Positions 1 to 58,375 of a DNA stretch of 62,650 nucleotides are shown here, in pieces. Every line of letters starts with the position of its first letter. Positions within the stretch are counted from its first letter, which is position 1. Below the pieces are notes generated by a model. The model ran no database searches. It was not told the DNA's origin and saw only the letters and a program-made list of their open reading frames with translations. The position numbers and the translations under genes are program-made. Where the stretch lies: positions 1 through 62,650 of IMG/VR virus record IMGVR_UViG_3300028840_001431; one strand, 5' to 3'. Source of the DNA: a virus. Lineage: Duplodnaviria > Caudoviricetes.

Positions 1-144
1 AAGCATATCTCGATCTTGGACGTGAGAAAGGGCAAGTGGGCATCGGATAGGATTGCAGATGAGATGCTTGACGTTCAGTTAGAGTGGAACCCCATTCTTT
101 TCACGGCTGAACAGGGCCATATCAACAAGACCTTGGGACCTTTC
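1..144. repeat. 144-bp exact terminal direct repeat (copy 1); circular-assembly overlap
   Basis: 1-144 (aagcatatct...gggacctttc) is identical to 62507-62650 and lies inside the terminase ORF. Confidence 0.97.
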
Positions 145-429
145 CTGAAGCTCATGATGAAGCAAAGGGGCATTACGATCAACCTTGATCCCCGAGTCCC
201 CGTGACCGATAAGGTGTCCCGAGCCCGCACGGTCCAAGGCCTGAGCAAGCAAGGGATGGTCAGTTTGCCGAAGAGAGGTCCCGATCAGCCAGCATGGTTA
301 TCTGATGTCCGAATGCAGTTGAGGCGTTTTCCCTACGGGAAAAATAAGGACTTTGTTGATGCCTTAGCATGGATGGGGCAAGCGATTGATGAGGTATTCA
401 AATCCAAGTGGGTTGGGGTAGCGACATGA
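1..429 (+). CDS. terL: Terminase large subunit, C-terminal nuclease part
   Basis: DKVSRA...LRRFPYGKNKDFVDALAW is a typical terminase RNase-H-like C-terminus; in frame with 61514..62650. Confidence 0.88.
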   Translation, partial: KHISILDVRKGKWASDRIADEMLDVQLEWNPILFTAEQGHINKTLGPFLKLMMKQRGITINLDPRVPVTDKVSRARTVQGLSKQGMVSLPKRGPDQPAWLSDVRMQLRRFPYGKNKDFVDALAWMGQAIDEVFKSKWVGVAT

Positions 430-626
430 TCAAGACGATATGGGCGGTCATTCGGTGTTACTCGCATTGCCTGTTTGCTCTCCATCGGCCATTCATTCAA
501 GAATACAAGGGGAAGCTCTTCGTTGTGAGCTGTTGGGAGTGTGAGCGTTCGTTCTATGGACCTGATGACGTGGTAAAGAAGCAGATCAGATTGTTCAGGG
601 CTCTTTCCCGAGCCTTTCATAGGTGA
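426..626 (+). CDS. Small hypothetical protein (CxxC)
   Basis: ATG overlaps the terL stop (ATGA coupling). Confidence 0.5.
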   Translation: MIKTIWAVIRCYSHCLFALHRPFIQEYKGKLFVVSCWECERSFYGPDDVVKKQIRLFRALSRAFHR

Positions 627-697
627 TACTCGCGTCCCTGCTAATTGGAACTAATATCGACCGATTGAGTCAAATTAACCTTTAGAGGAGGAGCATC

Positions 698-910
698 ATG
701 GATCAAAAAGACCTTCATCATCGTTTCACGTATCATCCACCGACCGGGAATCAGCCTGAGAAGTATGAGCAGATCAGGACGATAGCCCGTAATTTCTCTG
801 ATAACCTAAACCTTGCTTGCCCGGACAGCCGGGAAAAGAGTCTTGCGATCACCAAGCTTGAAGAGGCGGTTATGTGGGCAAACGCCGCTATTGCCAGAAA
901 TCCGAAGTAA
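698..910 (+). CDS. Acb2/Tad1-like helical-hairpin protein (putative immune-signal sponge)
   Basis: RFTYHPP...CPDSREKSLAITKLEEAVMWANAAIARN resembles the Tad1/Acb2 hairpin family; GAGGAG RBS. Confidence 0.65.
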   Translation: MDQKDLHHRFTYHPPTGNQPEKYEQIRTIARNFSDNLNLACPDSREKSLAITKLEEAVMWANAAIARNPK

Positions 911-1091
911 TATCCACAACTAAAAATTCGTTGACTTCAGATGATAGCAGATGAGAGGATATGAGAGACTAGGACGGGGGAGTAATCGTGGTTTTTTCAC
1001 CTGACCGGGTTTCATAGGGTTCCCCCTCAAGTGTCCTTTCCCATGGTATCCCCCGTCCCCTTACTAATCCCTTAAATGGAGGGACCTCGCA

Positions 1092-1601
1092 ATGGAGGAA
1101 GCTCAATGGAGCACCGAATTGACCCTTGATGAAGGGTACATGATTGGATCTCTCGCCGCTTGTCGTATCGTCCGAAAATTCCACTACAAACGAAAGAAGA
1201 GTCACGGTGGTCATTCCCGGAGAGATAATCGGATCATTTGGGCCGATTCGATCAATGGGTTGATGGGTGAGTATGCCGCGTCAAAGGTCCTTGGCTTGCC
1301 TTGGACCCCCGGCGGGCCGATGATTACCCATGGTGATATTGCCGAGGCTATTGAGGTCCGAACCCCGTGGAAACGGAATGGGAACCTCCTCATCTACAAG
1401 AGCGATACCTTACAGGTCCCGTTCGTCAAGATGAAGGGTGAGTTCCCGGTCTACCATGCGGTGGGTTGGATCTTGGGTGATGAGGCCCGATGTGATGACT
1501 TTTGGTGGAAAGGGGGTGATCCTCCATGTTGGAGCGTACCTGACCGATGCCTGACATCGATGGAACGATTCAAACCTTGGCTTGAAGGACGGTATATATG
1601 A
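1092..1601 (+). CDS. Hypothetical protein, possible PD-(D/E)xK-like fold
   Basis: GGAGG RBS; GxxGEYA...GDI...IEVRT pattern. Confidence 0.5.
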   Translation: MEEAQWSTELTLDEGYMIGSLAACRIVRKFHYKRKKSHGGHSRRDNRIIWADSINGLMGEYAASKVLGLPWTPGGPMITHGDIAEAIEVRTPWKRNGNLLIYKSDTLQVPFVKMKGEFPVYHAVGWILGDEARCDDFWWKGGDPPCWSVPDRCLTSMERFKPWLEGRYI

Positions 1602-1768
1602 GCACGTTGTTGGATCTAGCTTGGCAACATACGATTGGAGCCATCGCCTCTTCATTGGTGGGGTTCCTGACGTTCTTGGTGATTGTTGCCTTTGTTGGCC
1701 TCTTAATCCTGATAACCCGATATCGGTCAAAGCCTGAAGGTCCCATGAAACCCATCGACGAAGAGTGA
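1598..1768 (+). CDS. 56-aa membrane protein whose 3' end reads through TIGR-like units
   Basis: Hand translation MSTLLDLAWQHTIGAIASSLVGFLTFLVIVAFVGLLILITRYRSKPEGPMKPIDEE; ATGA overlap with upstream ORF; its TGA stop is inside the edge motif GTGAACCG at 1765. Confidence 0.6.
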   Translation: MSTLLDLAWQHTIGAIASSLVGFLTFLVIVAFVGLLILITRYRSKPEGPMKPIDEE

Positions 1769-1808
1769 ACCGCAAAGAGTATGAAACCCTTACAAACTAT
1801 CGTGAAAG
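1729..1808 (+). repeat. Satellite TIGR-like units (2, possibly 3 from ~1694)
   Basis: AAAGCCT-N10-TGAAACCCA(1746)-N10-GTGAACCG-N9-TGAAACCCT(1782)-N11-GTGAAAGG; loop motifs 36 nt apart; TGATAACCCG at 1710 is a further 36 nt upstream. Confidence 0.75.
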
Positions 1809-1818
1809 GAGGAAGTCA

Positions 1819-2001
1819 ATGCGAGCATTGCAAGAGCAAGTAAGAATACAATGTTCAGATGGAAATTGGAATTATGATCCGTACATGCACGGCATGGCTA
1901 ATGGTTTGATTTGTGCTTTAGCTACCATCGAGGGGAAAGAGCCGAAATATCTCAACCCGCCGGAGAAGTGGCTATGTGATAACGAGGTTGAATGCGGCTG
2001 A
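1819..2001 (+). CDS. 60-aa hypothetical protein lying between TIGR-like units
   Basis: AAAGGAGG RBS upstream of ATG 1819 (the track's 1765 start is an array motif). Confidence 0.7.
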   Translation: MRALQEQVRIQCSDGNWNYDPYMHGMANGLICALATIEGKEPKYLNPPEKWLCDNEVECG

Positions 2002-2008
2002 TTCCCAC

Positions 2009-2440
2009 GTGAGCCTGAATATTGCTGGAACCCTTAAAGACTGTGTGAAGCCTTGTCGCGTTGGAACCCATAATAATCATGTGAGCCGTGGCCGTATGAA
2101 ACCCTGATTATACCTGTGAGCCGAGAGAATTGTGAAATCCTTATGACCGACTGTGAGCCTAAAAACCGTGAACCCCTACGACCTTCAGCGGAGTTTGGTG
2201 GAGGTGGACCCCATCCCCCCGTGATGAATCGATGATCCTTGGAACCCGATTAAGCTCAAGTGAGCCTAGCACACCCTGAAACCCTGAGTGGCTTGCGAGT
2301 CAACAGTTGATGAAGCCCATTAATACGGTATGAAGTTTGGACTCAATGAATCCCTACCATCATGTATGAAGCCATAGTTATCTTGGACCCCAATCCTAAC
2401 AAGTGAGTCTAATGGAGATCGTGAAACCCTAACAATATTA
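2009..2440 (+). ncRNA. TIGR-like (tandem interspaced guide RNA) array: 12 units of ~36 nt, edge repeat - spacer A - loop repeat - spacer B
   Basis: No ORF of 60 aa or more in 2002-2464. Loop motif TG(A/G)A(A/C)CCC(T/A) at 2026, 2062, 2097, 2133, 2169, 2205, 2240, 2277, 2311, 2347, 2384, 2422 (mean period 36.0) alternates with edge motif (G/A)TGA(A)GCC/GTC at 2009, 2045, 2081, 2116, 2153, 2188, 2224, 2260, 2295, 2330, 2366, 2403; intervening 8-11-nt segments are all different. Confidence 0.9.
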
Positions 2441-2464
2441 CGCCTTTGAGCAAGGAGGACAGAG

Positions 2465-2923
2465 ATGAAGCATCAACTAGACCCCGATATGATGGCCAAA
2501 GAAGAAAAGCGTCCCGAGATGCCAGATAACGCCGGGATGGCTAAGGACCCTTATCGTATGCCTGTTACAAGCGTTAATGAAGCAATTCTCAGGAACATGG
2601 AGGGCATGAGATCCCTCATGGAAGAGATGGTTCAGCTAACCCGTGAGATGGCGGGCCATGAGGTCAGGATCTTCCCCCCTGCCATGGATGAGAAATATAC
2701 CGGGGAGGTCTACAAGCGGGACAACGGGGAAGAGGTCCCGGAGAGTGAGTGGGTGATCTTCCGCGTGACCGATCATCTCCTTCCGAACGTGCTCAGGGCC
2801 TATATGGACCTTTGCAAGTCGGTGGGATGTAGTGAGAGGCACATCAACGGCATTGGTGGGCTTCTTCAGCGGGTGGAGCATTGGCAAGCTACCCATCCCC
2901 ATCGGGTACACATGCCGGATTAG
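2465..2923 (+). CDS. Hypothetical protein (first cargo gene after the array)
   Basis: AAGGAGG RBS; its TAG stop lies in the edge motif TTAGCCA. Confidence 0.75.
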   Translation: MKHQLDPDMMAKEEKRPEMPDNAGMAKDPYRMPVTSVNEAILRNMEGMRSLMEEMVQLTREMAGHEVRIFPPAMDEKYTGEVYKRDNGEEVPESEWVIFRVTDHLLPNVLRAYMDLCKSVGCSERHINGIGGLLQRVEHWQATHPHRVHMPD

Positions 2924-2961
2924 CCATTACGAATTGAAACCCTTGCAATCATAGGTGATCA
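2920..2961 (+). repeat. Solitary TIGR-like unit filling an intergenic gap
   Basis: TTAGCCA-TTACGAAT-TGAAACCCT(2935)-TGCAATCATAG-GTGATCA then ATG 2962. Confidence 0.7.
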
Positions 2962-3876
2962 ATGTACGCTCATCAGGTTATGGAGTGGCTCGACAATCAA
3001 GCGGTGCATCCGGGGCAAATGCCGGATAACTACCGGAGAGACTTGAAATTTCTACGGGAGGCTATTCGCAAGGCCGTCAAGTATCATATGGGATTCATCG
3101 GTGATTTCTATGATATTTTCAAGCATAGAGTCCTTGGTGAGCCGCTCTTTACTGATGACGTGGTTTGCATCCCCCCTTACAATTCGATTTGGGTGGATTG
3201 GAAAACCTCCAAGAGTGCGGGGATCAAGAGGCAAGCGATATTGTGTCATCACTTCAACGATCATAGCCATCCCCATAGGCGACTTGATTTCACCCCGTTC
3301 ACGTATCAAAACCATAATGGATGGGATTGGACTTACATTCCGATCATAGCTCATGTGGATTTCGACAAGAAAGGGGAGTCAGAGAGATCTGTCAGCTATA
3401 GTTCATCTCTTACCCCTGAGGAGTGGGATCAGTACGGGAACCCCGATAAGAATGATAAGAAAGACCGCGGCCAAACAGGGGCCATCAGGCATATGGCGGT
3501 TCATATGACGGCCATGGATATGCTGTTTTCTTTCCTGAATTGTAAAAACGTCAAGACAATTCCCGTTGATCCTGATAAGAAGCTATTGAAGAAGAGGGCC
3601 AAGAGAAACAAGCTCCCCATTCTGAGATATCACGTCCTGAAGGTCACGGGAGTCAAGATCAAGCAGGATGGGACGATTGGACGGGGCAATCGAGATCTTC
3701 CCCTTCATACGGTATGCGGTCACATCAAGGACTATACCGATAAGGGCCTATTCGGTAAGATCAAGGGGCGGTTCTTCTTTGCCGCTCATCTCAGGGGCTC
3801 AGCCGATCACGGTATGGTGATGAAGGATTACGAAACAGTACCGGAGGAAAGACATGAACAGACGATCATTTGTTAA
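2962..3876 (+). CDS. Hypothetical phage protein
   Basis: 304-aa ORF with C-terminal PLHTVCGHIKDY...AHLRGS motif seen in phage hypotheticals. Confidence 0.75.
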   Translation: MYAHQVMEWLDNQAVHPGQMPDNYRRDLKFLREAIRKAVKYHMGFIGDFYDIFKHRVLGEPLFTDDVVCIPPYNSIWVDWKTSKSAGIKRQAILCHHFNDHSHPHRRLDFTPFTYQNHNGWDWTYIPIIAHVDFDKKGESERSVSYSSSLTPEEWDQYGNPDKNDKKDRGQTGAIRHMAVHMTAMDMLFSFLNCKNVKTIPVDPDKKLLKKRAKRNKLPILRYHVLKVTGVKIKQDGTIGRGNRDLPLHTVCGHIKDYTDKGLFGKIKGRFFFAAHLRGSADHGMVMKDYETVPEERHEQTIIC

Positions 3877-4462
3877 GGCAATCATAGCGGTTGGAGCCTC
3901 TACCATAGTGAAACCCGCTCTTTCTCTGCTCCCCAAGGCTAAAGCCGTGAGTTCTCCGGCGAGTTCTCCAATTGGAGATTTGGAGATCCCCAAAAATGCC
4001 TTTGTAACGTCCGAGCAGATCAAGGCCATAAGGAGGTTGCTTGCTCGTGGCGAAGTGGCCTTTAATTGGCCTCGGGTCCATGGGAAGGCCTCGGTGGTCG
4101 ATGATATGTATCGACAAAACAGGCCGATAGGGCATTTCAAACACCTTGAGCTTCCAAAGGCTAAGACGGTGAGTTTCAGGCGATATGAGGAGCTTCCCAC
4201 GGTGCCTGAGCCCTTAGCTGAGGGGATGATCCCGAGTGGTGAGCGATTGGCCTATGCAGAGTTTGTCCCTTGGGATCATTACTATAATGCCGCGAAGTTA
4301 AACGAGGAATGGTTGAAGAGGTTTGAGGTTGCTTCAACCGCTTCTGAGGTCCCTCTTATCCAGCAACAGGACCTCAATAAAATGGCTAAGCGTTTGGGCG
4401 AGAACGTTGCCCGAGTGAAGGAAAGCCTTATCAAGGCATTGATCAAATCAGCAGTCAGGTGA
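3854..4462 (+). CDS. Twin-arginine-signal protein containing a truncated major-capsid-like segment
   Basis: N-terminus MNRRSFVKAIIAVGA; LPKAKTVSFRRYEELPTVPEPLAEGMIPSGERLAY aligns with MCP IPKRHTKSIKFRRYESLPRATAPLAEGIPPKGRKLTY. Confidence 0.75.
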   Translation: MNRRSFVKAIIAVGASTIVKPALSLLPKAKAVSSPASSPIGDLEIPKNAFVTSEQIKAIRRLLARGEVAFNWPRVHGKASVVDDMYRQNRPIGHFKHLELPKAKTVSFRRYEELPTVPEPLAEGMIPSGERLAYAEFVPWDHYYNAAKLNEEWLKRFEVASTASEVPLIQQQDLNKMAKRLGENVARVKESLIKALIKSAVR

Positions 4463-4527
4463 TAGCGGAACCCTAGTGAGTATCTATGTTAAAAAGCGAT
4501 TAACAATGTTAATTTTGAGGTAACACC

Positions 4528-5085
4528 ATGAAGATAACAAGACGCGGATTCCTGAAGCTGTTAGGCGTTGGTGGTCCGGGATTAGCGGCGACCGCTACGG
4601 CTAAGATGAACCCCGTCAAAGGCCTTGAGGCCCTATTTCGGAACCTTCCCCAAGCAAAAGGGATTAGGGATGGGCAAGTCATCCTTGGATTTGATCCTAA
4701 GGTGATGTATGGTGATTGGATGAAGTCCGGGATTATCGTAAAACCGGAGATGTATGGAGTCTATGGGCCGTGGCGACCGTCCCCGAAACCGGGAAAGAAG
4801 CCGGGAGATTTGGGGTATTATGACTTGAGCCAAGTCCCTGATGAAACGATGAGGAAGGTACGGAAGAGCATTGAAACCTTTATCCCGAGGAAATGGCGAC
4901 CCCATGTAGTCATTGACCTTTCGGCTTCGGGTGATATCATTTGGTGGAGGTATCTTCCACCGGGGATGAGTCCGATCAGGAACCAGAAGCCCCCGGTTGA
5001 TACGTTCTTCCCCGAGAAGAGGAAGTCAAAGTTGACCGGAAAGCCCTTGAGAGAGGGTGAGCGTATCTCGTATTGGGATGATTGA
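4528..5085 (+). CDS. Twin-arginine (Tat) signal-containing hypothetical protein
   Basis: MKITRRGFLKLLGVGGPGLAATATA fits S/T-R-R-x-F-L-K; its TGA stop is inside the edge motif TTGAGCCA. Confidence 0.75.
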   Translation: MKITRRGFLKLLGVGGPGLAATATAKMNPVKGLEALFRNLPQAKGIRDGQVILGFDPKVMYGDWMKSGIIVKPEMYGVYGPWRPSPKPGKKPGDLGYYDLSQVPDETMRKVRKSIETFIPRKWRPHVVIDLSASGDIIWWRYLPPGMSPIRNQKPPVDTFFPEKRKSKLTGKPLREGERISYWDD

Positions 5086-5162
5086 GCCATTTGAAAGTAG
5101 GAACCCAAGATAGATTTTGTGAGCCTAATGACTGCTGGAGCCCTAGATAGTGTGTGAAATCA
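5082..5162 (+). repeat. Satellite TIGR-like mini-array (2 units)
   Basis: TTGAGCCA-N9-AGGAACCCA-N11-GTGAGCCT-N9-TGGAGCCCT-N9-GTGAAATCA; edges at 5082, 5119, 5154. Confidence 0.8.
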
Positions 5163-5180
5163 AAACTTTGGAGGTATGAA

Positions 5181-5663
5181 ATGAAGAGAATGAATTTGAG
5201 AGATTGGATTGCTTTCGTTTGTGTCGTCATTATCCTTGCGTTTGTCCTTACGCCGATGTTTGCAAATGCTCAAAACAAGGTCTATCAAGCGGATCTTCAC
5301 TTGATGTGGGAACATTCCGAGCATCCTTCCAACATGGCCGGGGGTGGATATCGGATCTATTGGGGTCCCGATGAGGGTGGACCGTGGCCTCAGTCTAAGG
5401 ATATCGACTTTGCAACTGTGGCCCCCGGTACGCCTTTGCCGAGTGGAGTGACGACCTATGAGGTCCCTCAGATCTTGATCCCGATTGACAATCCTCAGGC
5501 CTTATCAGCGGTCACGCGGTACATAGTCATGACGGCTTGGAATCAGGGAGGAGATGAATCAGATCCATCGAATGAAGTCACGGTTCCCATGAAATTCAAG
5601 CTTGCGGGGGTCAATGCTTTGAAGATCATCTTCAAGGCACTCATTGAAATCACGATTCCATGA
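5181..5663 (+). CDS. Secreted Fn3/Ig-like protein
   Basis: Signal peptide ending ANA; GYRIYWG...YIVMTAWNQGGDESDPSNEV is a fibronectin-III-like pattern. Confidence 0.6.
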   Translation: MKRMNLRDWIAFVCVVIILAFVLTPMFANAQNKVYQADLHLMWEHSEHPSNMAGGGYRIYWGPDEGGPWPQSKDIDFATVAPGTPLPSGVTTYEVPQILIPIDNPQALSAVTRYIVMTAWNQGGDESDPSNEVTVPMKFKLAGVNALKIIFKALIEITIP

Positions 5664-5944
5664 CCCGAAAAGCAAAGCCCCAAAAAGGAAGGAAGGTCGA
5701 TTTTTGGTCCTTTTGTACGGGGGCAGGAATGGGAATCTTCCTTGGACTACTCGCGGGTCAAGCCATCTATCAACCGGACACACCAAGGCCCGAGAGTTTT
5801 CGACCTGTCCAAGTGATGAGGCCTCTCCCTGATGGGAAATTTCAGGAAGGGCGAATGGGTCCGAATGGACGATTCATACCCGTTGGACCTCCAAGGGAGT
5901 TGACAGAGAAAGAAAAGGCCATGGTCCCGGCTGAATTGAGGTAA
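5660..5944 (+). CDS. Single-pass membrane hypothetical protein
   Basis: Hydrophobic segment; ATGA overlap. Confidence 0.55.
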   Translation: MTRKAKPQKGRKVDFWSFCTGAGMGIFLGLLAGQAIYQPDTPRPESFRPVQVMRPLPDGKFQEGRMGPNGRFIPVGPPRELTEKEKAMVPAELR

Positions 5945-5947
5945 GGC

Positions 5948-6595
5948 ATGATCAAGCCCCCCGCAATGGTTAAGGCCTACCCTGAGAGGAAATTCCATCG
6001 ATTCTTCTTCGATGAAGGTCCCCCATGTGACTTCTATGTGAGAGGGGCTATTGCTTGGCCTTGGATAGGTCAATTAGGCTTTGGAGTCCTAGGGGCTCAA
6101 GAGATCAATACGAAGATCGTCTATGTCTTTGAAGAATATGAGTTTCTCCACATTGACCCCGTTTTCGACCCTGACACAACTAAATACGTTGGATTGGCCG
6201 ACTTCCTCAATAGGATGGCCTCAAAGTATCAGGCAACCGAGTATTTCTGGAATGACCGCCCTGACCTCCACGATTATTATCACAAGCTTGTCATCAGATC
6301 CCCCCAAGTGAACGTTCAGCCCGCCATGATCAAAGCCCATTACGACAAGGATGAGGTTGCAGATGGGATTCTCCATGCTCATGTTGACCGGAAAACGGTT
6401 AGGGTATCATTGCAATCTCAGGTGTTACAGCATTTGCAAGGGGGTGATCCCGATCAATTCAGGGGATATCATGCTTTGAGGGTCCTTTTGATGGGGTTCA
6501 CTAATTTTCCATGGAGGGACCCCGGACCACCGACCGAGGACGTGGTTGAGATTTGGGACCCCACTCCTCGTATTTGGTCGAAATGGAGCAGATGA
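5948..6595 (+). CDS. Hypothetical protein (possibly RNase-H-like fold)
   Basis: 215-aa ORF with GAGGT RBS; the fold guess is weak. Confidence 0.6.
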   Translation: MIKPPAMVKAYPERKFHRFFFDEGPPCDFYVRGAIAWPWIGQLGFGVLGAQEINTKIVYVFEEYEFLHIDPVFDPDTTKYVGLADFLNRMASKYQATEYFWNDRPDLHDYYHKLVIRSPQVNVQPAMIKAHYDKDEVADGILHAHVDRKTVRVSLQSQVLQHLQGGDPDQFRGYHALRVLLMGFTNFPWRDPGPPTEDVVEIWDPTPRIWSKWSR

Positions 6596-6611
6596 AAGGA
6601 GGTGATGGCAG

Positions 6612-6665
6612 ATGCCTTGCGGATCAAAGAAGGGTAAGAAGAGAGGGGGCCGGAAAGGCCGTTAA
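6612..6665 (+). CDS. 17-aa basic micropeptide MPCGSKKGKKRGGRKGR
   Basis: AAAGGAGGTG RBS upstream; hand translation. Confidence 0.5.
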   Translation: MPCGSKKGKKRGGRKGR

Positions 6666-6673
6666 GAAAACTA

Positions 6674-6702
6674 TTGACTTTTCAGCGAAATTGTGCTTTA
6701 AC
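6674..6702 (+). promoter_or_regulatory. Possible sigma70 promoter
   Basis: TTGACT-17 nt-TTTAAC with TG upstream of the -10. Confidence 0.35.
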
Positions 6703-6710
6703 CCCCGGCA

Positions 6711-6911
6711 ATGATCAGGGGGATAAAAAGAGTTGAACTCACGATTGTCTGTGAGAGGTGCGGGAGGAAGGCTCAAGTTGAATCATTAGATGATACGGTT
6801 TGCCTGTCCTGCCTAGCGTTTGCCGATAGGAGAAAGAAGGTTGGAAAAGTCATCTCCCGAGTTGTCTCTGACGCGGCAAAAGGAAAGTTTTCTCCAAAGG
6901 TTACGCCGTGA
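6711..6911 (+). CDS. Small zinc-finger protein
   Basis: CERC...CLSC. Confidence 0.5.
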   Translation: MIRGIKRVELTIVCERCGRKAQVESLDDTVCLSCLAFADRRKKVGKVISRVVSDAAKGKFSPKVTP

Positions 6912-7024
6912 CCATGGCATAACTCCCACCGTTTGCATCGAAAAATACCCCGGAACAAACAGGCCTTGCTTACACGCTTTCATTCGGAAGGATGGAGGCG
7001 TTCATCATTTTAGGAGGATGATCC

Positions 7025-7339
7025 ATGAAGCTGATCTCACTTAGAATACCCAAGAAGAAAAAGAAAGACATGCCTGAGGCCGTAACCGCCTATGAGGGTG
7101 ATCGGTATCCATGGGGGCTCAGGATCAGCATGAACAAGGATGAGATCAAGAAGCTCAATGCTTCAGGCCTGAACGCCGGGGATATGGTCAAGATCGTAGC
7201 GACCGGGAAGGTTATCGAAAAGCGGGTGAGTGATGAGGTTCCCGATAAACGGAGCGAGCACATCTCGATTCAAATCCAGACGATGGGGTTCACGAACAAA
7301 TCTGACTTTGCCGGGGCTTTCAAAGAAGCATCCAAGTAA
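7025..7339 (+). CDS. Small head-associated (capsid staple/gp10-like) protein
   Basis: YPWGLRISMNKDEIKKL...GDMVKIVATGKV...ISIQIQTM pattern seen in podovirus head modules. Confidence 0.5.
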   Translation: MKLISLRIPKKKKKDMPEAVTAYEGDRYPWGLRISMNKDEIKKLNASGLNAGDMVKIVATGKVIEKRVSDEVPDKRSEHISIQIQTMGFTNKSDFAGAFKEASK

Positions 7340-7606
7340 ATGCTAAACCTCAGAAGAAAAGTTCAATCTATGGCCGATTTTGATCCTGAAGGGTCAGGCT
7401 ATGATTACAAGACCGCTATCAAAGATCGCGTTCTCCCTAAGAGGGGCCATTGGTCGAGCAGAAACCCGAAAACGGGGCAAATATTGAAAGGCCGGAAACA
7501 CCGGACCCATAAGAAAACGGTCAAGGGTGAGAAGAAGGCCGGATATCGAATCATCAAGGGAAAGGACGGGAAATATTATTCAGTACCCCGAGGGAGGTAT
7601 GACTAA
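7340..7606 (+). CDS. Basic hypothetical protein
   Basis: Abuts neighbouring genes; K/R-rich. Confidence 0.55.
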   Translation: MLNLRRKVQSMADFDPEGSGYDYKTAIKDRVLPKRGHWSSRNPKTGQILKGRKHRTHKKTVKGEKKAGYRIIKGKDGKYYSVPRGRYD

Positions 7607-7998
7607 TGGCAAGATCAAGGCTTATGCAATCAGTTGAGAGAGAAGCTCAGGCTATGGACCGAAGGACGGTCAGGCCTGTCAGGCGTTCAGCCTTACATCG
7701 TGGGGTCAGCAATGTCAGGGACTATTGGAAAACCAAGGTCCAGACGATGGCCTCTAAACGCCGTGGGCGAAAGATGAGATCGGCCCTGAAGGAAAAGAAA
7801 CGGTATCAGCGTTCTTTTGGGCGGGCTATGGGTGAGCGGGCTAAGTACATCCAGAGAATGAATAAATATGGTCGAACCCAAGGGGCCGGATTGAAGGAGT
7901 TCGGTGAGGCCCTGTTTAGCCCTGAAGAGAGGGCAAGGCGTCAACAAATCAACCGTCAACGTAGAGGCTTCACCCGAAGAAGGGAAGTCCGAAGATAG
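7606..7998 (+). CDS. Highly basic (Arg-rich) hypothetical protein
   Basis: GGAGG RBS; TAATG coupling. Confidence 0.6.
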   Translation: MARSRLMQSVEREAQAMDRRTVRPVRRSALHRGVSNVRDYWKTKVQTMASKRRGRKMRSALKEKKRYQRSFGRAMGERAKYIQRMNKYGRTQGAGLKEFGEALFSPEERARRQQINRQRRGFTRRREVRR

Positions 7999-8005
7999 GA
8001 GAAAA

Positions 8006-8311
8006 ATGAACGGAATATATCTACCAGACTCAGAGATCCTAGAGATCCGGGAAGAGGCTCAGACCTTGCTAGGGATCATTCAAAAGTTCGTTTGGGAGGT
8101 TCAGGCAGAACTAAACCTAGACTCTTCTGAATTAGAATCCCTGTTTACTTTCATGGGTGACATGGGTTGGGGGAATAAACCTAACACCATGATTGAATTA
8201 ACCAATTTATTGCGAAAGTTTGCAGAAGCAAGGAGGTTGACTGATGGGCCTGTCAATGACCGAGAAGGCAAGAGTGATGAAGGTGATCAACCAAGAGATT
8301 CCGGCACTTAA
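8006..8311 (+). CDS. Hypothetical protein
   Basis: AGGAG RBS before ATG 8006. Confidence 0.5.
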   Translation: MNGIYLPDSEILEIREEAQTLLGIIQKFVWEVQAELNLDSSELESLFTFMGDMGWGNKPNTMIELTNLLRKFAEARRLTDGPVNDREGKSDEGDQPRDSGT

Positions 8312-8417
8312 GGCGTTGGTAACGTCAGAGATTGCGGCTTTGAATGCCAAGATCGATGCATTAACCCCGCCGGAACCGAAGTCGAAGAAGAAGGGAAATT
8401 CCAAGAAAAAGGGTTAA
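8244..8417 (+). CDS. 57-aa hypothetical protein
   Basis: AAGGAGG RBS; MGLSMTEKARVMKVINQEIPALKAL...KKKG; ends just before the portal. Confidence 0.55.
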   Translation: MGLSMTEKARVMKVINQEIPALKALVTSEIAALNAKIDALTPPEPKSKKKGNSKKKG

Positions 8418-8420
8418 GCC

Positions 8421-10373: not shown

Positions 10374-10651
10374 TTGAAATAACTGAAGACATCCTTGAGG
10401 GCCTGAAAGAGCGGATTGACCAAGAGGTTGAGAAGCTTTTGAAGGCTTTTCATGGAAGGCACAAGATCAAACAGGCCTATGATGAGTGGGTCAAGTCCTT
10501 GGATCGGGGGCTTTATCCTGATGATCCTGATGCCCTCTTCAGTTTGTTCTATCTTGACAAGGCCATCCTTCATGTGAGAAAAGGGGAAAACCCCTTATTT
10601 ATCAAATTCATAGAGCCCCAAGGAGGGAACTTAGATGCCGAAGAAGCCTGA
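10370..10651 (+). CDS. Hypothetical protein
   Basis: ATGA coupling to the portal. Confidence 0.6.
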   Translation: MIEITEDILEGLKERIDQEVEKLLKAFHGRHKIKQAYDEWVKSLDRGLYPDDPDALFSLFYLDKAILHVRKGENPLFIKFIEPQGGNLDAEEA

Positions 10652-11039
10652 GAGCAAAAGCCTAGGAGAAGTTTACAAGGGAAAGGTTGTTCACATCGTT
10701 GGTGCGGGTGCAAGTGATTACATGGGAAGGATCGATGATTCCCCTCATCCTCTCGGGTGGGGATGGGTCAGAATCTTAGATCCCTGCATCGTTAGGATCA
10801 GGGTTGCGAATCAGACGGTTGAAACCGGAGTTTCCCGTCTTGGAGGGCCTGAGCAAGCTTACGAGATGAGCGTTGACGTTTTCATTGGGGACCTGAGCAT
10901 TGAAATCAGGACCTTGCGTGAAGGTGGGGAGCTTATGGCTTCATATGAGCGTCAACTTGCAAACGTCACGAAGAGGATTGTCTCTCCGAGTTCTAGGGAC
11001 GTTGCAAACATCTCCGCTCAAAAGAAGTTCTTGCAGTAA
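10635..11039 (+). CDS. Hypothetical protein
   Basis: AGGAGG RBS. Confidence 0.6.
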   Translation: MPKKPESKSLGEVYKGKVVHIVGAGASDYMGRIDDSPHPLGWGWVRILDPCIVRIRVANQTVETGVSRLGGPEQAYEMSVDVFIGDLSIEIRTLREGGELMASYERQLANVTKRIVSPSSRDVANISAQKKFLQ

Positions 11040-11275
11040 TGCCCTTAGATGCCCAAGACATAGCTACAATAGCAACCCTTCCCCGTTCCGAGTATTGGAG
11101 GTCATTAAGGAAATGGCTTGACGACGAAAAGGCCACGGTCAGAAACAAGATCAGGAACAACCCTCAGGTGAATGACAAGGATTTTCGTCAGGATATAAAG
11201 TGGTTACTCTCACGGGAAGCTTTGATTGATGAGTTGATTGAGCTTCCAAACAAGATCAGGGAAAGGGAGGAATAA
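11039..11275 (+). CDS. Small helical head-module protein
   Basis: TAATG coupling; typical portal-scaffold spacer gene. Confidence 0.6.
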   Translation: MPLDAQDIATIATLPRSEYWRSLRKWLDDEKATVRNKIRNNPQVNDKDFRQDIKWLLSREALIDELIELPNKIREREE

Positions 11276-11279
11276 GAAA

Positions 11280-11876
11280 ATGAACAAACGATTTGCAATT
11301 GTAGCGTTGACGGCATTGATGGTTTTCGTTTTTGCGGGAATGGCCTTGGCTGACCCTTTCACCGGAAGGCCTCACACTTGGAGAGGTGAGCAGATTTACC
11401 GGGGAGAGATGAAGTTCAGGGGTGATAACGCGGATCTCACTTTGGAATCCGGGTCCGAGATTACCCTGACCACGGCTCCCCGATATACGACCACAACCCT
11501 TACTTGGACTGCTGGCACGGGATACACGGTTCCCTCGACCGTAAAAACCGGGGCCGTCTATCAATTCGATATCTCTTCGGCCACAAGTTCAAGTGCCGGG
11601 GGCGATAATGGCATCATGGATGTCGGCACGGCAGGGGTGACAATTCATATTCCCACCCCAACCGCAGTTAATCATGATACGATCTTCGGGCTTCAGAAGA
11701 TCGACTCCGGGACAACGGACGCTATTCTCTACTGTGCGGGCCTTCCGATCTTTTGGGCTTCGTCCGGTACAACCAATGTGAGCAAGGAAATGGATGCCCA
11801 AGGGGATATCGTTTGGTTGCAACTTAATTACAATGGTGCGGTTAGTGTCTTTGCGGTCAACGAGTATATGCATTAA
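11280..11876 (+). CDS. Signal-peptide-bearing beta-rich protein (possible virion decoration)
   Basis: GGAGG RBS; MNKRFAIVALTALMVFVFAGMALA-DPF. Confidence 0.65.
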   Translation: MNKRFAIVALTALMVFVFAGMALADPFTGRPHTWRGEQIYRGEMKFRGDNADLTLESGSEITLTTAPRYTTTTLTWTAGTGYTVPSTVKTGAVYQFDISSATSSSAGGDNGIMDVGTAGVTIHIPTPTAVNHDTIFGLQKIDSGTTDAILYCAGLPIFWASSGTTNVSKEMDAQGDIVWLQLNYNGAVSVFAVNEYMH

Positions 11877-11926
11877 TCCTTAGAGTTCTGAAATCCTAAA
11901 TACATATGTGAATTGGAGGAGTTGAG

Positions 11927-54657: not shown

Positions 54658-54808
54658 GGACCTAGCTGATACGATCATATGGACCGCTGAGGAGAGGGTT
54701 AAAGAGCAGGGAGTTCATGTGAACTCAGCTATCCATGCAATCACCCTTGAGGTTGATCAGTTCCTTATGGAGTACATGAAGGACCATAATCCTAGAAAAG
54801 CCAAATAG
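54650..54808 (+). CDS. 52-aa hypothetical protein
   Basis: AAGGAGG RBS, GTG start, hand translation MIKDLADTIIWTAEERVKEQG... Confidence 0.5.
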   Translation: MIKDLADTIIWTAEERVKEQGVHVNSAIHAITLEVDQFLMEYMKDHNPRKAK

Positions 54809-54838
54809 ATAATGAAGCCCTAGAGTTGAGGTGATCCA
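54798..54838 (+). repeat. Solitary TIGR-like unit
   Basis: AAGCCA-AATAGATAA(9)-TGAAGCCCT-AGAGTTGAG(9)-GTGATCC then ATG 54838. Confidence 0.65.
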
Positions 54839-55957: not shown

Positions 55958-56408
55958 TTACGGTGAGGGATACCTCAGCTTTAAGAGGAAACCCACGTTT
56001 GATGAAGCCAAGGATGTGATGACCTTCATTGATTTTGAGGAGGAAAACCTTGCTTGGCATCATGGGGACCTCTTAAATGCCATCGATGATTATTTTGGTG
56101 AGGAAGCTTCTCAATTGGTGGGGCCGAAGCTTGCAAGGAAGGCGACCACCCGTAAGCATGTAGCCGGGAAATTCAAACCACCTCAAAGAATTCATACCCT
56201 TAGCTTCAGCCATCACCAAGAAGTGGCTCCAATTAAGAATATCGAGATGAGGCAGGAACTATTGAACTTGGCCGATGACAATGGGTGGAACGTCACTCAG
56301 TTGAGGGATGAAAAGAATAGGCGGCTTGGGAAGATCCCCAAAGCCAAAACGGTTGAATGCCCCGGCTGTCATTTGGTCTTTGACCCAAAGAAAATAGAGG
56401 GAGAATAA
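55932..56408 (+). CDS. LmbU-like/HTH DNA-binding protein, translationally coupled to the Tas gene
   Basis: WHHGDLL...LSFSHHQEVA...LLNLADDNGWNVTQLR; C-terminal CPGC; TAATG overlap at 56408. Confidence 0.55.
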   Translation: MTMKPDLVDYGEGYLSFKRKPTFDEAKDVMTFIDFEEENLAWHHGDLLNAIDDYFGEEASQLVGPKLARKATTRKHVAGKFKPPQRIHTLSFSHHQEVAPIKNIEMRQELLNLADDNGWNVTQLRDEKNRRLGKIPKAKTVECPGCHLVFDPKKIEGE

Positions 56409-57472
56409 TGCCTAAGCGGAAAGAGCCTTTGAGCGAAGAAGAGATTGCCGCTATTACATTAGAAACCAAACTGAAAACCGAGGTCATGTACGCAATCCAA
56501 AAGGCAAGGATTGCCGCCGATCTTAGGATTCAGGCCTTTGTCAGAGATAAGAGGATGACCGAAGTCAAGGCTAAGGCCCTGCATATGTGGCTAAGCGATA
56601 TGGCTTCGGGCATGGAAAAGCACGTCAACGGGGAGGTGAGGGTCCTCCTCAAGGACGTTCCGATCTATAACAGATGGCTTGTGAATGTTTACGGTGTGTC
56701 AACCGCCTTAAGCGGCTCCCTCATTGCCGGGATAGGCGATATATCGCGGTTTGAGAAGGCATCGAGTCTTTGGAAATATTGTGGGCTCGATGTCATCCAT
56801 TGGTGTGATACTTGCCATATGCCCGCCCCTCCCGATCTCAAGGTTACGACCGGGGACGTTTGCCCCATGTGTCGGAAGGGGGAATTCATTGGTGAGGCTC
56901 CCCGCCGAATGTCAGGTCAGAAGATCCATTGGAGCCCCTTTCTGAGGTCAACGGTCTATAAGATAACAGAAAGCATCGTCAGGGCCGTCAGGGCTCCCGA
57001 GAAGAACTTCTATCGCAAGCTTTACGAAGAGAGGAAGGCAAGACACCAAGAGGAGCACCCTGAGTGCCGAATCTGCTATAAATGCGGGGCTCCATTGGTT
57101 GAGCATGAGAGAGTGAGAGTCAAGAAGGTCAACAAGAAAACCGGGAAAGAGACTGAGGAATGGTACAAAAAGCAAGATGAATGCCCAACCAAGGGTTGCA
57201 AGGGCAATCATGGGGGCTCAACCCATCCCTTCAGGAAAACGAAAGCCGGAGATCCCCTTTACCGTTACAGCAAGGGCCACATCCATCGGATGGCTAAGCG
57301 GTACATGGGGAAGGTCTTTATGCTCCACCTTTGGCTTATTTGGAGGAGTATCGAGGGTTTACCGATCAGCGGGCCATGGATTATCGAGCATGGTGGGCAT
57401 ATTCATTTCACTCAGCCGCCGCATTGGGAGCCTTTTGACATTGGTAAAAGTGGGGAGGTGGTAACACCCTGA
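56408..57472 (+). CDS. TIGR-associated Tas-like protein (Nop/IS110 C-terminal fold, no RuvC/HNH = TasA-like) with two Zn-finger insertions
   Basis: Coiled-coil N-terminus (IQKARIAADLRI); WLVNVYGVSTALSGSLIAGIGDISRFEKASSLWKYCGL; APRRMSGQKIHWSPFLR; FYRKLYEERKAR; GHIHRMAKRYMGKVFMLHLWLIWRSIEGLP; inserts CDTC..CPMC and CYKC..CPTKGC. Confidence 0.8.
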   Translation: MPKRKEPLSEEEIAAITLETKLKTEVMYAIQKARIAADLRIQAFVRDKRMTEVKAKALHMWLSDMASGMEKHVNGEVRVLLKDVPIYNRWLVNVYGVSTALSGSLIAGIGDISRFEKASSLWKYCGLDVIHWCDTCHMPAPPDLKVTTGDVCPMCRKGEFIGEAPRRMSGQKIHWSPFLRSTVYKITESIVRAVRAPEKNFYRKLYEERKARHQEEHPECRICYKCGAPLVEHERVRVKKVNKKTGKETEEWYKKQDECPTKGCKGNHGGSTHPFRKTKAGDPLYRYSKGHIHRMAKRYMGKVFMLHLWLIWRSIEGLPISGPWIIEHGGHIHFTQPPHWEPFDIGKSGEVVTP

Positions 57473-58003: not shown

Positions 58004-58375
58004 ATGTCAAACATCAATACTCCGTTTATCATAGGCCCCGGCGGGGAGATTCCACCTCTCCTCACGGGGCTTTTTTCGTCTAACCCCATGACAATAGATG
58101 AGTTCCATAGGAACCTTGCCGTGGTGATACTGGAAGGATACCCGATATCGGAGTTATCCAAGAGATCACCCGCGTATGATTATCGAAGGCTTTGGATTGT
58201 CCTTCAGGCCTTTTGCATGAATACCCTCCCCGGCCACTACCGACAAGCTCATCGAATGACAATCGAGAAATATTGCAGAGTCAACCCCGAAACCCGAGAG
58301 ATTGGGTATCAACCGGGATGGGCGGCGTTGGAGTTCCTGAGGGAGTTTAAGGATGATTTCATAGCCAATTCTTAG
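58004..58375 (+). CDS. Hypothetical protein
   Basis: GAGGT RBS; TAG stop in the edge-like motif TTAGTCC. Confidence 0.55.
   Translation: MSNINTPFIIGPGGEIPPLLTGLFSSNPMTIDEFHRNLAVVILEGYPISELSKRSPAYDYRRLWIVLQAFCMNTLPGHYRQAHRMTIEKYCRVNPETREIGYQPGWAALEFLREFKDDFIANS

What the first reader, a model, noticed from the sequence alone, without database searches (positions are those of the whole stretch)
1694..5162. The array is interrupted by cargo genes: TIGR units sit at gene boundaries like cassette joints
Seen: beyond the 12-unit core, units occur at 1729-1808 (2-3), 2920-2961 (1) and 5082-5162 (2), with weaker ones at 4451-4485, 3892-3917 (inside a CDS) and 608-672. Upstream stop codons repeatedly fall inside the edge motif (TGA 1766 in GTGAACCG, TAG 2921 in TTAGCCA, TGA 5083 in TTGAGCCA). 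The closing edge motif merges with the next gene's RBS or start (GTGAAAGGAGG, GTGATCAATG). Inference: accessory genes were inserted into a once-contiguous array, giving a hybrid guide/mRNA operon. Units could be Tas-dependent mRNA processing or translation-control sites, or recombination joints for integron-like gene shuffling. I do not know of this architecture being characterised.
Basis: partly seen in the sequence, partly recalled or inferred. Interest (0 to 1): 0.88.

Follow-up and report, generated by a model that had tools for sequence, protein, structure and literature searches.

The report
Phage guide-RNA array split by genes
A phage carries a known kind of guide-RNA array (TIGR) that is broken into several blocks by small accessory genes and lies far from its partner protein gene, which is an unusual layout but not a new kind of system.

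Summary
The window is a complete 62.6-kb phage. It holds one dual-repeat TIGR locus: a 12-unit core (2009-2440) plus two 2-unit blocks (1731-1804 and 5085-5156). Both blocks score above every background hit on either strand and in shuffles.

The single unit at 2922-2957 is in exact 36-nt register, but its score does not beat the best background hits. The "weaker" units at 4451-4485, 3892-3917 and 608-672 are not supported.

The three stop codons do lie in the leading edge motifs. The trailing edges do overlap ribosome-binding sites, although GGTGATC is itself a Shine-Dalgarno-like sequence.

The only tas gene (56408-57472, Nop domain only, TasA type) lies about 6.8 kb from the array. In 51 of 51 related viral loci the array abuts tas.

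Each block has normal array ends: a 5'-truncated first edge and a 3'-truncated last edge. Each block could therefore yield complete tigRNAs from a read-through transcript.

In another phage lineage a 62-aa ORF sits inside the array in 3 contigs and is absent from 7 close relatives. One of its breakpoints lies 10 nt inside a unit. The window phage encodes no tyrosine or serine recombinase.

Gene gain into an array is plausible. Integron-like joints are not supported. mRNA processing at the units remains untested. This is a new variant of a known kind, of moderate interest.

The parts
56408..57472 (+). tas gene: 354 aa, Nop domain only (TasA type) with zinc-ribbon-like inserts. It is the only Tas gene in the phage.
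   Evidence: phmmer against PDB: 9mty_A, E = 9.9e-27. 9MTY is the TaTasR RNP (Faure 2025, passage read). Residues 74-345 align to TaTasR 158-326, so there is no room for an N-terminal RuvC domain. Weak match to TasH 21kl_A. Pfam Transposase_20 E = 4e-4; phrog_4285 E = 1.5e-38. The profile of alignment A1 finds one match in the whole phage. 97 viral stretches encode relatives, nearly all next to periodic arrays.
1731..1804 (+). Satellite block 1: two TIGR units of 37 nt each (1731-1767 and 1768-1804). The first edge is 5'-truncated (cAAAGCC) and the last is 3'-truncated (cGTGAAAG). The block overlaps the last 38 nt of ORF 1598-1768 and the ribosome-binding site of ORF 1819-2001.
   Evidence: scores 19.2 and 22.2; E = 0.007 and 0.37; 22.1 and 26.0; shuffle maximum 21.3.
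1598..1768 (+). 56-aa ORF with one predicted membrane helix. Its stop TGA 1766-1768 lies in the edge between the two units.
   Evidence: only weak Pfam and PHROG hits.
1819..2001 (+). 60-aa gene between satellite block 1 and the core array.
   Evidence: phrog_23796, E = 5e-6. Ribosome-binding site AAGGAGG at 1806-1812.
2008..2453 (+). Core TIGR array of 12 units (loops at 2027 ... 2423). The last edge is degenerate (TTTGAGCA) and runs into ribosome-binding site AAGGAGG of ORF 2465.
2465..2923 (+). 152-aa gene directly after the core array. Its C-terminal half has a homologue 1.1 kb downstream of the TIGR array of locus L077.
   Evidence: tblastn; BLASTP 5e-12. No Pfam or PHROG family.
2922..2957 (+). 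Probable solitary unit of 36 nt: AGCC, 9-nt spacer, TGAAACCC, 12-nt spacer, GGTG. Stop TAG 2921-2923 overlaps its start. Its 3' part is also the Shine-Dalgarno-like AGGTGATC of ORF 2962.
   Evidence: Its score is not above the best background hits.
2962..3876 (+). 304-aa gene. AcrVA2-like (anti-CRISPR family PF26125) is a lead only.
   Evidence: ESM Atlas feature score 0.98; 26 of 30 hits in clusters where 15-29% of members carry PF26125; TM 0.61-0.67. phrog_20769. No PDB sequence or fold match. BFVD matches are uncharacterised phage proteins. PF26125 is not in the local Pfam copy.
3854..4462 (+). 202-aa gene with a twin-arginine-like N terminus. Stop TGA 4460-4462.
   Evidence: Pfam TAT_signal E = 0.045, below cut-off.
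4528..5085 (+). 185-aa gene. Stop TGA 5083-5085 lies in the first edge (aTTGAGCC) of satellite block 2.
   Evidence: no family.
5085..5156 (+). Satellite block 2: two units (5085-5121, 37 nt; 5122-5156, 35 nt). The middle edge TGTGAGCC is perfect. The last edge is 3'-truncated (TGTGAAAT) and is followed by ribosome-binding site TGGAGG and ATG 5181.
   Evidence: 24.4 and 26.7; 22.8 and 25.9.
698..910 (+). Acb2/Tad1 hairpin-domain protein (anti-CBASS/anti-Thoeris sponge family), upstream in the same accessory-gene island.
   Evidence: Pfam PF24729, E = 7.5e-23, above cut-off.
11876..11910 (+). Candidate solitary unit (35 nt) in the 50-nt spacer between ORFs 11238-11876 and 11927-12982. Not proven.
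   Evidence: Covariance model E = 0.008; PWM 19.4; 18.8 with 0.17 null hits expected. Loop lies 16 nt after the stop.
54799..54833 (+). Candidate solitary unit (35 nt): AGCC, N10, TGAAGCCC, N9, GGTG, followed by ATCC-ATG. Same form as 2922-2957. Not proven.
   Evidence: 18.2; 0.23 null hits expected; of 8 GGTGATC sites on the + strand, only 2954 and 54830 directly precede a start codon.

Best explanation
This is a single dual-repeat TIGR-Tas locus of a tailed phage with a fragmented array that is detached from its tas gene. It has 16 well-supported units and one probable unit, all on the + strand. They stand in blocks of 2, 12, (1) and 2 over 1731-5156. Five small accessory genes lie between the blocks, and a sixth small ORF overlaps the first block. 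The blocks sit in the accessory island between the large terminase and the portal gene. The array lies about 6.8 kb downstream of the only tas gene (TasA type, no nuclease domain).

Shown: every block starts with a 5'-truncated edge that keeps the AGCC half. Every block ends with a 3'-truncated edge that keeps the (T)GTG(A) half. That is the form Faure et al. describe for the ends of ordinary arrays. Each block therefore encodes complete 35-37-nt tigRNAs.

Inferred: the blocks and genes are read as one polycistronic transcript, because the spacers are 10-70 nt long and show no promoter- or terminator-like signal. tigRNAs are cut out of that transcript with the help of Tas. As a by-product this severs the mRNA between cistrons. 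TasA-tigRNA complexes then bind DNA targets without cutting them, as published for other TasA proteins.

Inferred: the layout arose when accessory genes, probably anti-defence genes, were gained inside and beside a non-coding array by ordinary illegitimate recombination. Site-specific cassette exchange at the units is not needed. Stops in edges and edges overlapping ribosome-binding sites would follow from tight packing and from the TGA in the edge consensus.
For: Tas identity: PDB 9MTY (TaTasR), E = 1e-26. There is one tas gene in the phage.

The repeats fit the published grammar. Edge and loop both start with TG and end with CC, and the period is about 36 nt (Faure 2025 sections 4 and 8, read).

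The two 2-unit blocks score above all background.

Block registers of 35-37 nt and half edges at block ends come from the coordinates. [quoted passage not shown] Faure also states that arrays of 1-3 units are processed if they have full edge repeats.

No excess of promoter- or terminator-like sites in 1-9000: 7 promoter-like found against 9.3 expected, and 5 terminator-like against 10.0 expected.

Read-through into genes is common in this Tas clade. Of 71 array blocks in the fetched loci, 52 are followed by the start of an ORF of 50 aa or more within 8-90 nt, and 3 have a strict terminator-like hairpin (a crude test).

Gene gain in arrays happens. A 62-aa ORF lies inside the array in L062/L066/L070 and is absent from 7 relatives with 85-90% identical flanks. 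In L014 an 83-aa ORF lies between the array and a further 4-unit block.

Island context: an Acb2/Tad1 protein at 698-910; an AcrVA2-like lead at 2962-3876; a homologue of ORF 2465 downstream of the L077 array.

TasA proteins act as RNA-guided repressors (Xu et al. 2026 preprint, abstract and discussion read).
Against: No RNA data exist for this phage, so co-transcription and processing are inferred.

No close relative of the phage was found, so the history of the split cannot be read for this phage.

GC content is uniform over 1-12000 (0.45-0.54), so nothing marks the inner genes as recent arrivals.

The single unit at 2922-2957 is not above background by score. Its 3' edge can be explained as a Shine-Dalgarno sequence alone.

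The distance from tas (about 6.8 kb) is unlike all 51 comparison loci (25-876 nt), so function in trans is assumed.

In a weak alignment to SpTasH (E = 0.14), the catalytic His296 aligns with the invariant H331. Tyr289 aligns with W324, so autonomous processing by this Tas is uncertain. The catalytic residues are taken from PMC13421893 (passages read).

Block-end edges are truncated, whereas Faure found processing of mini-arrays only with full edge repeats.
Confidence: 0.6

Rival explanations
1. The outlying units act on RNA rather than, or as well as, serving as guides. Tas binding or cleavage at units between cistrons would separate the mRNAs, or would mask the overlapping ribosome-binding site, and so tune expression of the neighbouring genes. 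Single units may also occur in unrelated intergenic spacers of the genome.
For: 3 of 3 genes that precede a block end inside its first edge. Trailing edges overlap ribosome-binding sites.

Outside the TIGR region, three loop motifs lie in intergenic spacers (11890, 54814, 58388), against about 0.46 expected from 1.9 kb of spacer. This is my estimate, made after seeing the hits.

The loops at 11890 and 58388 lie 16 and 15 nt after a stop codon, as at 2936 (15 nt) and 1783 (17 nt). The sites at 11876-11910 and 54799-54833 are in 35-nt register.

Of 8 GGTGATC sites on the + strand, only the two that follow a loop in register directly precede a start codon.
Against: The scores of the single units (18.2-20.7) are no higher than the best antisense hits in coding DNA (20.7 and 20.5).

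58388 has no 3' edge at the right distance.

Intergenic DNA is enriched in stop codons and Shine-Dalgarno-like GGTGA, which the model rewards, and the statistics are post hoc.

Tight packing alone predicts such overlaps.

None of the papers I read reports Tas acting on mRNA.
Confidence: 0.15
2. The outlying units are decaying, functionless remnants of a once longer array that was eroded by gene insertions and deletions.
For: Edges at 2919-2926 and 2954-2961 are degenerate. A spacer-less edge-loop-edge remnant lies at 4457-4480, and a half unit lies at 3894-3917 inside a coding sequence. In the core itself, units 5-7 and 9-10 have weak edges.
Against: Both 2-unit blocks keep perfect or near-perfect loops, an intact internal edge and the exact 35-37-nt register. 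They keep just those halves of the outer edges that would be part of mature tigRNAs.
Confidence: 0.15
3. The units are recombination joints for integron-like shuffling of gene cassettes.
For: Genes are flanked by units. Gene content next to and inside arrays differs among close relatives in the L061-L076 group.
Against: The complete phage has no tyrosine recombinase (PF00589) and no serine recombinase (PF00239). Tas here has no nuclease or transposase catalytic domain.

The repeats are only 8 nt long.

In L062 the right junction of the inserted ORF lies 10 nt inside a unit. In L065/L068 the extra 160-aa gene is inserted at the start codon of the next gene.

ORFs 2962-3876 and 3854-4462 overlap with no unit between them.
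Confidence: 0.04
4. The extra units are chance matches in a composition that favours GGAACCC-like words.
For: G[GA]A.CCC occurs 78 times on the + strand and 58 times on the - strand, well above the roughly 30 expected for even base use.
Against: The two 2-unit blocks exceed all 40 shuffles and the whole minus strand. They are in register, on the array's strand and within 3 kb of it.
Confidence: 0.03

Closest known systems
Dual-repeat TIGR-Tas systems (Faure et al., Science 2025, PMC12045711; sections 4-8, 10 and 44 read)
   Same: A Nop-domain Tas protein. Alternating edge and loop repeats that both start with UG and end with CC(N). Spacers of about 9-11 nt and a period of about 36 nt. Phage-borne. 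Array ends with truncated edges.
   Different: The array is about 6.8 kb from tas instead of adjacent. It is split into 3-4 blocks by five non-tas genes. Blocks are followed by ribosome-binding sites and genes instead of a terminator.
[quoted passage not shown]
   Same: TIGR array blocks separated by a protein-coding gene in one operon with a TasA-type effector.
   Different: There the separating genes belong to the system (tasA, tasParB). Here they are unrelated accessory genes and tas is elsewhere. No ParB homologue was looked for here.
tigRNA units inside the tas coding sequence (Xu et al. 2026 preprint, 10.64898/2026.09.09.750476; sections 5, 10, 11 and 13 read)
   Same: Guide units overlapping coding sequence. 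The same open question of co-transcription with mRNA.
   Different: Those units are mostly of the stem-loop type and lie inside tas. Here dual-repeat units lie at the boundaries of other genes, and only the first block overlaps an ORF's 3' end.
Viral loci L062/L066/L070 and L014 fetched here (IMG/VR contigs)
   Same: Same Tas family and repeat grammar. An array interrupted by one small ORF (62 aa and 83 aa).
   Different: One gene rather than five, with tas adjacent. In L014 the distal 4-unit block has its own AT-rich upstream region and terminator-like hairpin.
Integron cassette arrays (from my own knowledge, not from a call)
   Same: Genes alternate with short repeated elements in one orientation.
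   Different: No integrase, no attC-like imperfect inverted repeats, and the repeats belong to a guide-RNA array.

Membership tests
TIGR-Tas (dual-repeat) | A Tas protein with a Nop domain | tested here: met
   ORF 56408-57472 against PDB 9mty_A (TaTasR), E = 9.9e-27. Pfam Nop PF01798 itself gives no hit in six frames. Transposase_20 E = 4e-4, just under cut-off.
TIGR-Tas (dual-repeat) | An array of two alternating short repeats (edge, loop) with two short spacers per unit and a period of about 36 nt | tested here: met
   12 core units with period 34-38 nt and spacers of 10-13 nt as I delimited them.
TIGR-Tas (dual-repeat) | Edge and loop repeats share box D (UG) at the start and box C (CCA) at the end, covarying between the two repeats | tested here: met
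   Edge TGTGAGCC and loop TGGAACCC/TGAAACCC both start with TG and end with CC. The third box C base is not a conserved A. The related loci use AG...CCA in both repeats.
TIGR-Tas (dual-repeat) | Array located directly upstream and/or downstream of tas | tested here: not met
   From tas end 57472 to the first unit at 1731 is 6765 nt across the record end (unique length 62506). In 51 of 51 comparison loci the gap is 25-876 nt.
TIGR-Tas (dual-repeat) | Array transcribed and processed into about 36-nt tigRNAs bound by Tas | not testable with these tools
   No RNA run is listed for this DNA. Only DNA contigs were laid.
TIGR-Tas (dual-repeat) | Y/H processing dyad in the C-terminal loop of the Nop domain (SpTasH Y289/H296) | tested here: inconclusive
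   In the weak phmmer alignment to TasH 21kl_A (E = 0.14), H296 aligns with H331, which is invariant in A1, and Y289 aligns with W324.
Integron-like cassette array | A site-specific recombinase encoded with the array | tested here: not met
   PF00589 and PF00239 each give 0 matches in the complete phage, and the control genomes were detected.
Integron-like cassette array | Gene gain and loss with both breakpoints at the repeat element | tested here: not met
   Tested only in another lineage. The right junction of the L062 insert lies 10 nt inside a unit. The L065 insert lies at a gene start. Not testable for the window's own lineage.

The most novel reading that the evidence does not exclude
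Single, in-register tigRNA units placed between cistrons (2922-2957, 54799-54833, 11876-11910, and the 2-unit blocks) are used by the phage as Tas-dependent punctuation. Tas binding or tigRNA excision would cut polycistronic mRNAs and mask overlapping ribosome-binding sites. A guide-RNA system would then double as a post-transcriptional regulator of accessory and even structural operons across the genome.
Probability: 0.12. Interest if true: 0.8.

Novelty: new variant of a known kind. Interest (0 to 1): 0.45.

Why it matters
Work on TIGR-Tas so far describes arrays as contiguous and adjacent to tas, and annotation tools look around tas. This phage shows three departures:
- An array can lie several kilobases from tas.
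- An array can be broken into mini-arrays by unrelated genes, probably anti-defence genes.
- An array can sit in what looks like one read-through operon.

This bears on three open questions:
- How arrays are transcribed and matured.
- Whether arrayless tas loci have distant arrays.
- How arrays grow, shrink and rearrange.

It also offers a natural test case for whether excising a tigRNA cuts an mRNA.

Tried and rejected
Close relatives of the phage were sought with several queries.
- Terminase, Tas and portal proteins in viral contigs: none found.
- Portal in metagenome contigs: none found.
- Tas protein and DNA 1-6000 in GenBank phages: only a 19% partial protein hit, and 1% DNA hits to the Acb2-like gene.

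Sequencing runs: no RNA holder is listed. Two DNA runs hold the stretch and may be its source. Laying their contigs on 1-9000 gave one identical 62,536-nt contig per run and no joints or indels. A few 151-nt contigs with 12 differences were too short to use.

Self-target search used spacer pairs in both tandem arrangements, gaps of 0-7 nt and up to 3 mismatches.
- Nothing stood out in the arrangement that fits published 3' overhangs.
- Mismatched A/B pairs as controls gave similar hits: best hit of 1 mismatch in 1 of 34 controls and 2 mismatches in 5 of 34.
- One 19-of-20 match in the other arrangement is listed under Noticed in passing.

Spacer searches in the public collections were not run. 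An 18-mer is expected many times by chance in hundreds of gigabases.

Pfam Nop (PF01798) gave no hit in the phage. PDB sequence searches of ORFs 2962 and 2465 gave nothing meaningful. The fold of ORF 2962 (pLDDT 68.8) has no PDB match at E <= 0.001. Rfam and tRNA scans of the window were empty. The small membrane ORFs before the arrays of the window and of L077 are not alike.

The generic motif scan was too loose, with many singletons on both strands. It was replaced by locus-specific PWMs. The greedy gene set picked antisense ORFs and was replaced by a strand-aware set. The array-block counts are crude: some blocks are parts of one array, and the terminator test demands perfect stems.

Supplementary files of the papers were closed. 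Figures S4 and S14 and table S1 of Faure 2025, and the Extended Data of Xu 2026, may show similar split loci that I could not see. The statement that interrupted arrays are not described rests on three things: the sections I read; a search for the term "interrupt" in the Xu preprint and "interrupted" in Faure 2025, 0 occurrences each; and search, in which 6 papers held at least 2 of the 3 terms and none held "interrupted".

Full report
WHAT THE WINDOW IS. The window is a whole virus record of 62,650 nt with 144-nt direct terminal repeats. Genes run on the + strand from 1 to about 43.5 kb, on the - strand to about 51.3 kb, and then on the + strand again. The large terminase spans the record ends: 61349-62650 plus 1-429 (PHROG terminase). 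The portal gene is at 8421-10373 (weak SU10_portal match). The finding lies in the 8 kb of small genes between them.

THE ARRAY. Reading 2001-2460 shows 12 units of the form tGTGAGCC, N10-11, tGRAnCCC, N10-12, with a period of 34-38 nt. Edge and loop both start with TG and end with CC. That matches the box D (UG) and box C (CCA) grammar that Faure et al. derive from the TaTasR structure (section 8). Tandem Repeats Finder does not see the array, because most of each unit is spacer.

THE TAS GENE. Pfam Nop gives no hit in six frames. ORF 56408-57472 (354 aa) matches PDB 9mty_A at E = 9.9e-27 over the C-terminal 170 residues of that chain. 9MTY is the TaTasR RNP.
- The match starts at residue 74 of the query and residue 158 of TaTasR, so there is no room for a RuvC domain. 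The protein is TasA type, with CxxC inserts.
- A profile of 12 relatives finds only this one gene in the phage.
- The same profile found 97 relatives in viral contigs, of which 80 loci were kept. Almost all carry a periodic array next to the gene.
- In a weak alignment to SpTasH, the catalytic His296 aligns with the invariant H331 and Tyr289 aligns with W324 (catalytic residues from PMC13421893).

CHECKING THE EXTRA UNITS. I trained position weight matrices on the 12 core units only and scored edge + loop + edge with the core's spacings on both strands. Outside the core, the + strand gave:
- 5137: 26.7
- 5100: 24.4
- 1783: 22.2
- 11890: 19.4
- 1747: 19.2
- 58388: 15.9
- 11960 and 26838: 15.8
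- 2936: 14.3
- 3910: 11.2

The best minus-strand hit was 17.7.

A sequence-only covariance model of 11 core units gave these non-core E-values:
- 1740-1771: 0.007
- 11879-11913: 0.008
- 58383-58410: 0.07
- 2923-2958: 0.2
- 5084-5125: 0.21
- Best minus-strand hit: 0.36
- 1778-1803: 0.37
- 5131-5158: 1.1
- 3894-3921: 1.3
- 4451-4485 and 608-672: no hit at E <= 10

A third model scores only what a mature tigRNA would hold: 3' half edge, loop and 5' half edge. It gave:
- 1747: 22.1
- 1783: 26.0
- 5100: 22.8
- 5137: 25.9
- Maximum over 40 local shuffles: 21.3
- Minus-strand maximum: 20.7
- 2936: 20.7, equal to the two best antisense hits
- 58388: 19.0
- 11890: 18.8
- 54814: 18.2
- 3910: 15.9

The two 2-unit blocks are therefore real. 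The single unit at 2936 is not distinguishable from background by score. The three weakest sites fail.

ANATOMY OF THE BLOCKS. I counted from the AGCC half of one edge to the GTG of the next. The spans are:
- 1731-1767: 37 nt
- 1768-1804: 37 nt
- 2922-2957: 36 nt
- 5085-5121: 37 nt
- 5122-5156: 35 nt

These come from the coordinates. Each block opens with an edge whose 5' half is lost (cAAAGCC, aTTAGCC, aTTGAGCC). Each block closes with an edge whose 3' half is lost (cGTGAAAG, gGTGATCA, TGTGAAAT).

Faure et al. describe exactly this for ordinary array ends, there followed by a terminator. Here the closing half edge runs into a ribosome-binding site and a start codon instead. The edge consensus contains TGA, so an ORF that runs into an array is soon stopped. 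GGTGATC is also the complement of the usual 16S rRNA 3' end (from my own knowledge), so the closing "edge" at 2954 could be only a Shine-Dalgarno site.

GENES BETWEEN THE BLOCKS.
- 1819-2001: phrog_23796, E = 5e-6.
- 2465-2923: no family. Its C-terminal half matches an ORF 1.1 kb downstream of the L077 array (BLASTP 5e-12).
- 2962-3876: phrog_20769. AcrVA2-like by the ESM Atlas only. My AlphaFold model (pLDDT 68.8) has no PDB match and matches uncharacterised phage proteins in BFVD.
- 3854-4462 and 4528-5085: no family.

Upstream lies an Acb2/Tad1 hairpin protein (698-910, E = 7.5e-23). In L077 the two ORFs after the array have sub-threshold Acb2/Tad1 hits (E = 1e-3 and 9e-3). The setting looks like an anti-defence or accessory island, but only the Acb2/Tad1 call passes a curated cut-off. 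GC content is even across the region. There is no excess of promoter- or terminator-like sites.

HOW UNUSUAL THE LAYOUT IS. In the 51 fetched loci with a main array of 8 or more units, the array lies 25-876 nt from the tas match. The three largest values belong to loci where further units lie closer. In the window the gap is 6765 nt.

High-scoring units away from the main array were of only two kinds. One kind is a second array on the other side of tas (L001, L004, L011, L028), which is known. The other kind is an array interrupted by a small ORF:
- L062/L066/L070: 10 units, then a 62-aa ORF at 1514-1702, then 7 units.
- L014: an array, a hairpin, an 83-aa ORF, an AT-rich stretch, then 4 units and a terminator-like hairpin.

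Arrays followed at once by a gene start are common: 52 of 71 blocks, against 3 with a strict terminator-like hairpin (crude).

A TEST OF CASSETTE JOINTS IN ANOTHER LINEAGE. L062 has relatives with 85-90% identical flanks. The 62-aa ORF is found in L062, L066 and L070, which are 99-100% alike and count as one lineage. It is absent from L061, L065, L068, L069, L072, L073 and L076, which all keep the gene after the array.
- On the right, L062 regains homology to L073's unit at 4080 only after that unit's first 10 nt. The edge and two spacer bases are gone.
- On the left, the insert follows an intact edge.
- In L065/L068 a 160-aa gene is inserted just after the array's closing edge, at the start codon of the next gene.

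Genes do come and go in and beside arrays, but not by exchange at a fixed point of the unit. The window phage encodes no tyrosine or serine recombinase.

POSSIBLE SINGLE UNITS ELSEWHERE. Three intergenic spacers outside the region hold a loop motif: 11890, 54814 and 58388.
- 11876-11910 and 54799-54833 are in 35-nt register with half edges. 58388 lacks a 3' edge.
- The loops at 11890 and 58388 lie 16 and 15 nt after a stop codon, as at 2936 and 1783.
- I estimate about 0.46 loops expected in the roughly 1.9 kb of spacer outside the region, against 3 seen. That count was made after seeing the hits, and spacer composition favours the model.

I treat these sites as leads.

MECHANISM. Published work shows four things:
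- Arrays are transcribed and cut in the middle of edges into 36-nt tigRNAs.
- Tas is needed for that step.
- Arrays of one to three units work if the edges are full.
- TasA-type proteins repress transcription at matching DNA.

From the layout I infer one read-through transcript over at least 1600-5700, from which about 17 tigRNAs are released. Each release would break the mRNA between cistrons. Whether that break matters for expression is open.

WHAT IS NEW. The system is a member of a known kind. Three features appear new: detachment from tas, the split into mini-arrays by five unrelated genes, and gene starts directly after blocks. I found none of these described in the sections of Faure 2025 and Xu 2026 that I read, nor by term searches. 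Faure's Methods do mention arrays between tasParB and tasA, and Xu reports units inside tas. Supplements could not be seen.

Noticed in passing
window 6003-6022 and unit 1731-1767: The reverse complement of spacer B of the first unit, directly followed by spacer A, matches 6003-6022 inside ORF 5948-6595 at 19 of 20 bases with no gap. This order (rcB then A) is the opposite of the order I infer from the published 8-nt 3' overhangs. I estimate the chance probability at roughly 0.01-0.02 after allowing for the arrangements tried. One of 34 mismatched-pair controls also reached 1 mismatch in 18.
   Followed up: partly
window 11876-11910, 54799-54833, 58374-58394: Loop motifs with edge-like flanks lie in three short intergenic spacers far from the array. 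Two are in 35-nt register. Their scores are at the level of the best background hits.
   Followed up: partly
window 698-910: A 70-aa protein with an Acb2/Tad1 hairpin domain (anti-CBASS/anti-Thoeris sponge family), E = 7.5e-23.
   Followed up: no
window 2962-3876: A 304-aa protein that the ESM Atlas places with clusters partly annotated AcrVA2-like (PF26125). It has no solved-structure relative. Its relatives are 25-30% identical and unnamed.
   Followed up: partly
window 3854-4462 and 4528-5085: Two adjacent phage ORFs start with twin-arginine-like signal sequences (MNRRSFVKA... and MKITRRGFLKLLG...). The Pfam TAT_signal match is only E = 0.045 for the first.
   Followed up: no
window 24699-40247: A single open reading frame of 5182 aa on the + strand. 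It was not examined.
   Followed up: no
window 56408-57472: In this Tas and its closest relatives, the position that aligns with the catalytic Tyr289 of SpTasH is Trp (PW...GGH). More distant relatives in A1 and L077 have Tyr (PY). The His is invariant.
   Followed up: partly
L062 1466-1760; L066, L070; L065 1826-2317: Among phage contigs with 85-90% identical flanks, one lineage has a 62-aa ORF inside the TIGR array. Another has a 160-aa gene inserted between the array and the next gene. Arrays in these relatives share a few units and differ in most.
   Followed up: yes
L077 12454-13824: Downstream of a contiguous array of 45 or more units lie two ORFs with sub-threshold Acb2/Tad1 hairpin hits and a homologue of window ORF 2465-2923.
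   Followed up: partly
window 268-401 and 6470-6605: In coded runs X1 and X2, 151-nt contigs with 12 differences at depth about 2 point to a rarer related strain in the same samples.
   Followed up: no
window 4457-4480: GTGATAGC, GGAACCC, TA and GTGAGTA follow one another: an edge-like, loop and edge-like run with no spacers. It overlaps stop TGA 4460-4462. It could be a collapsed unit or chance.
   Followed up: partly
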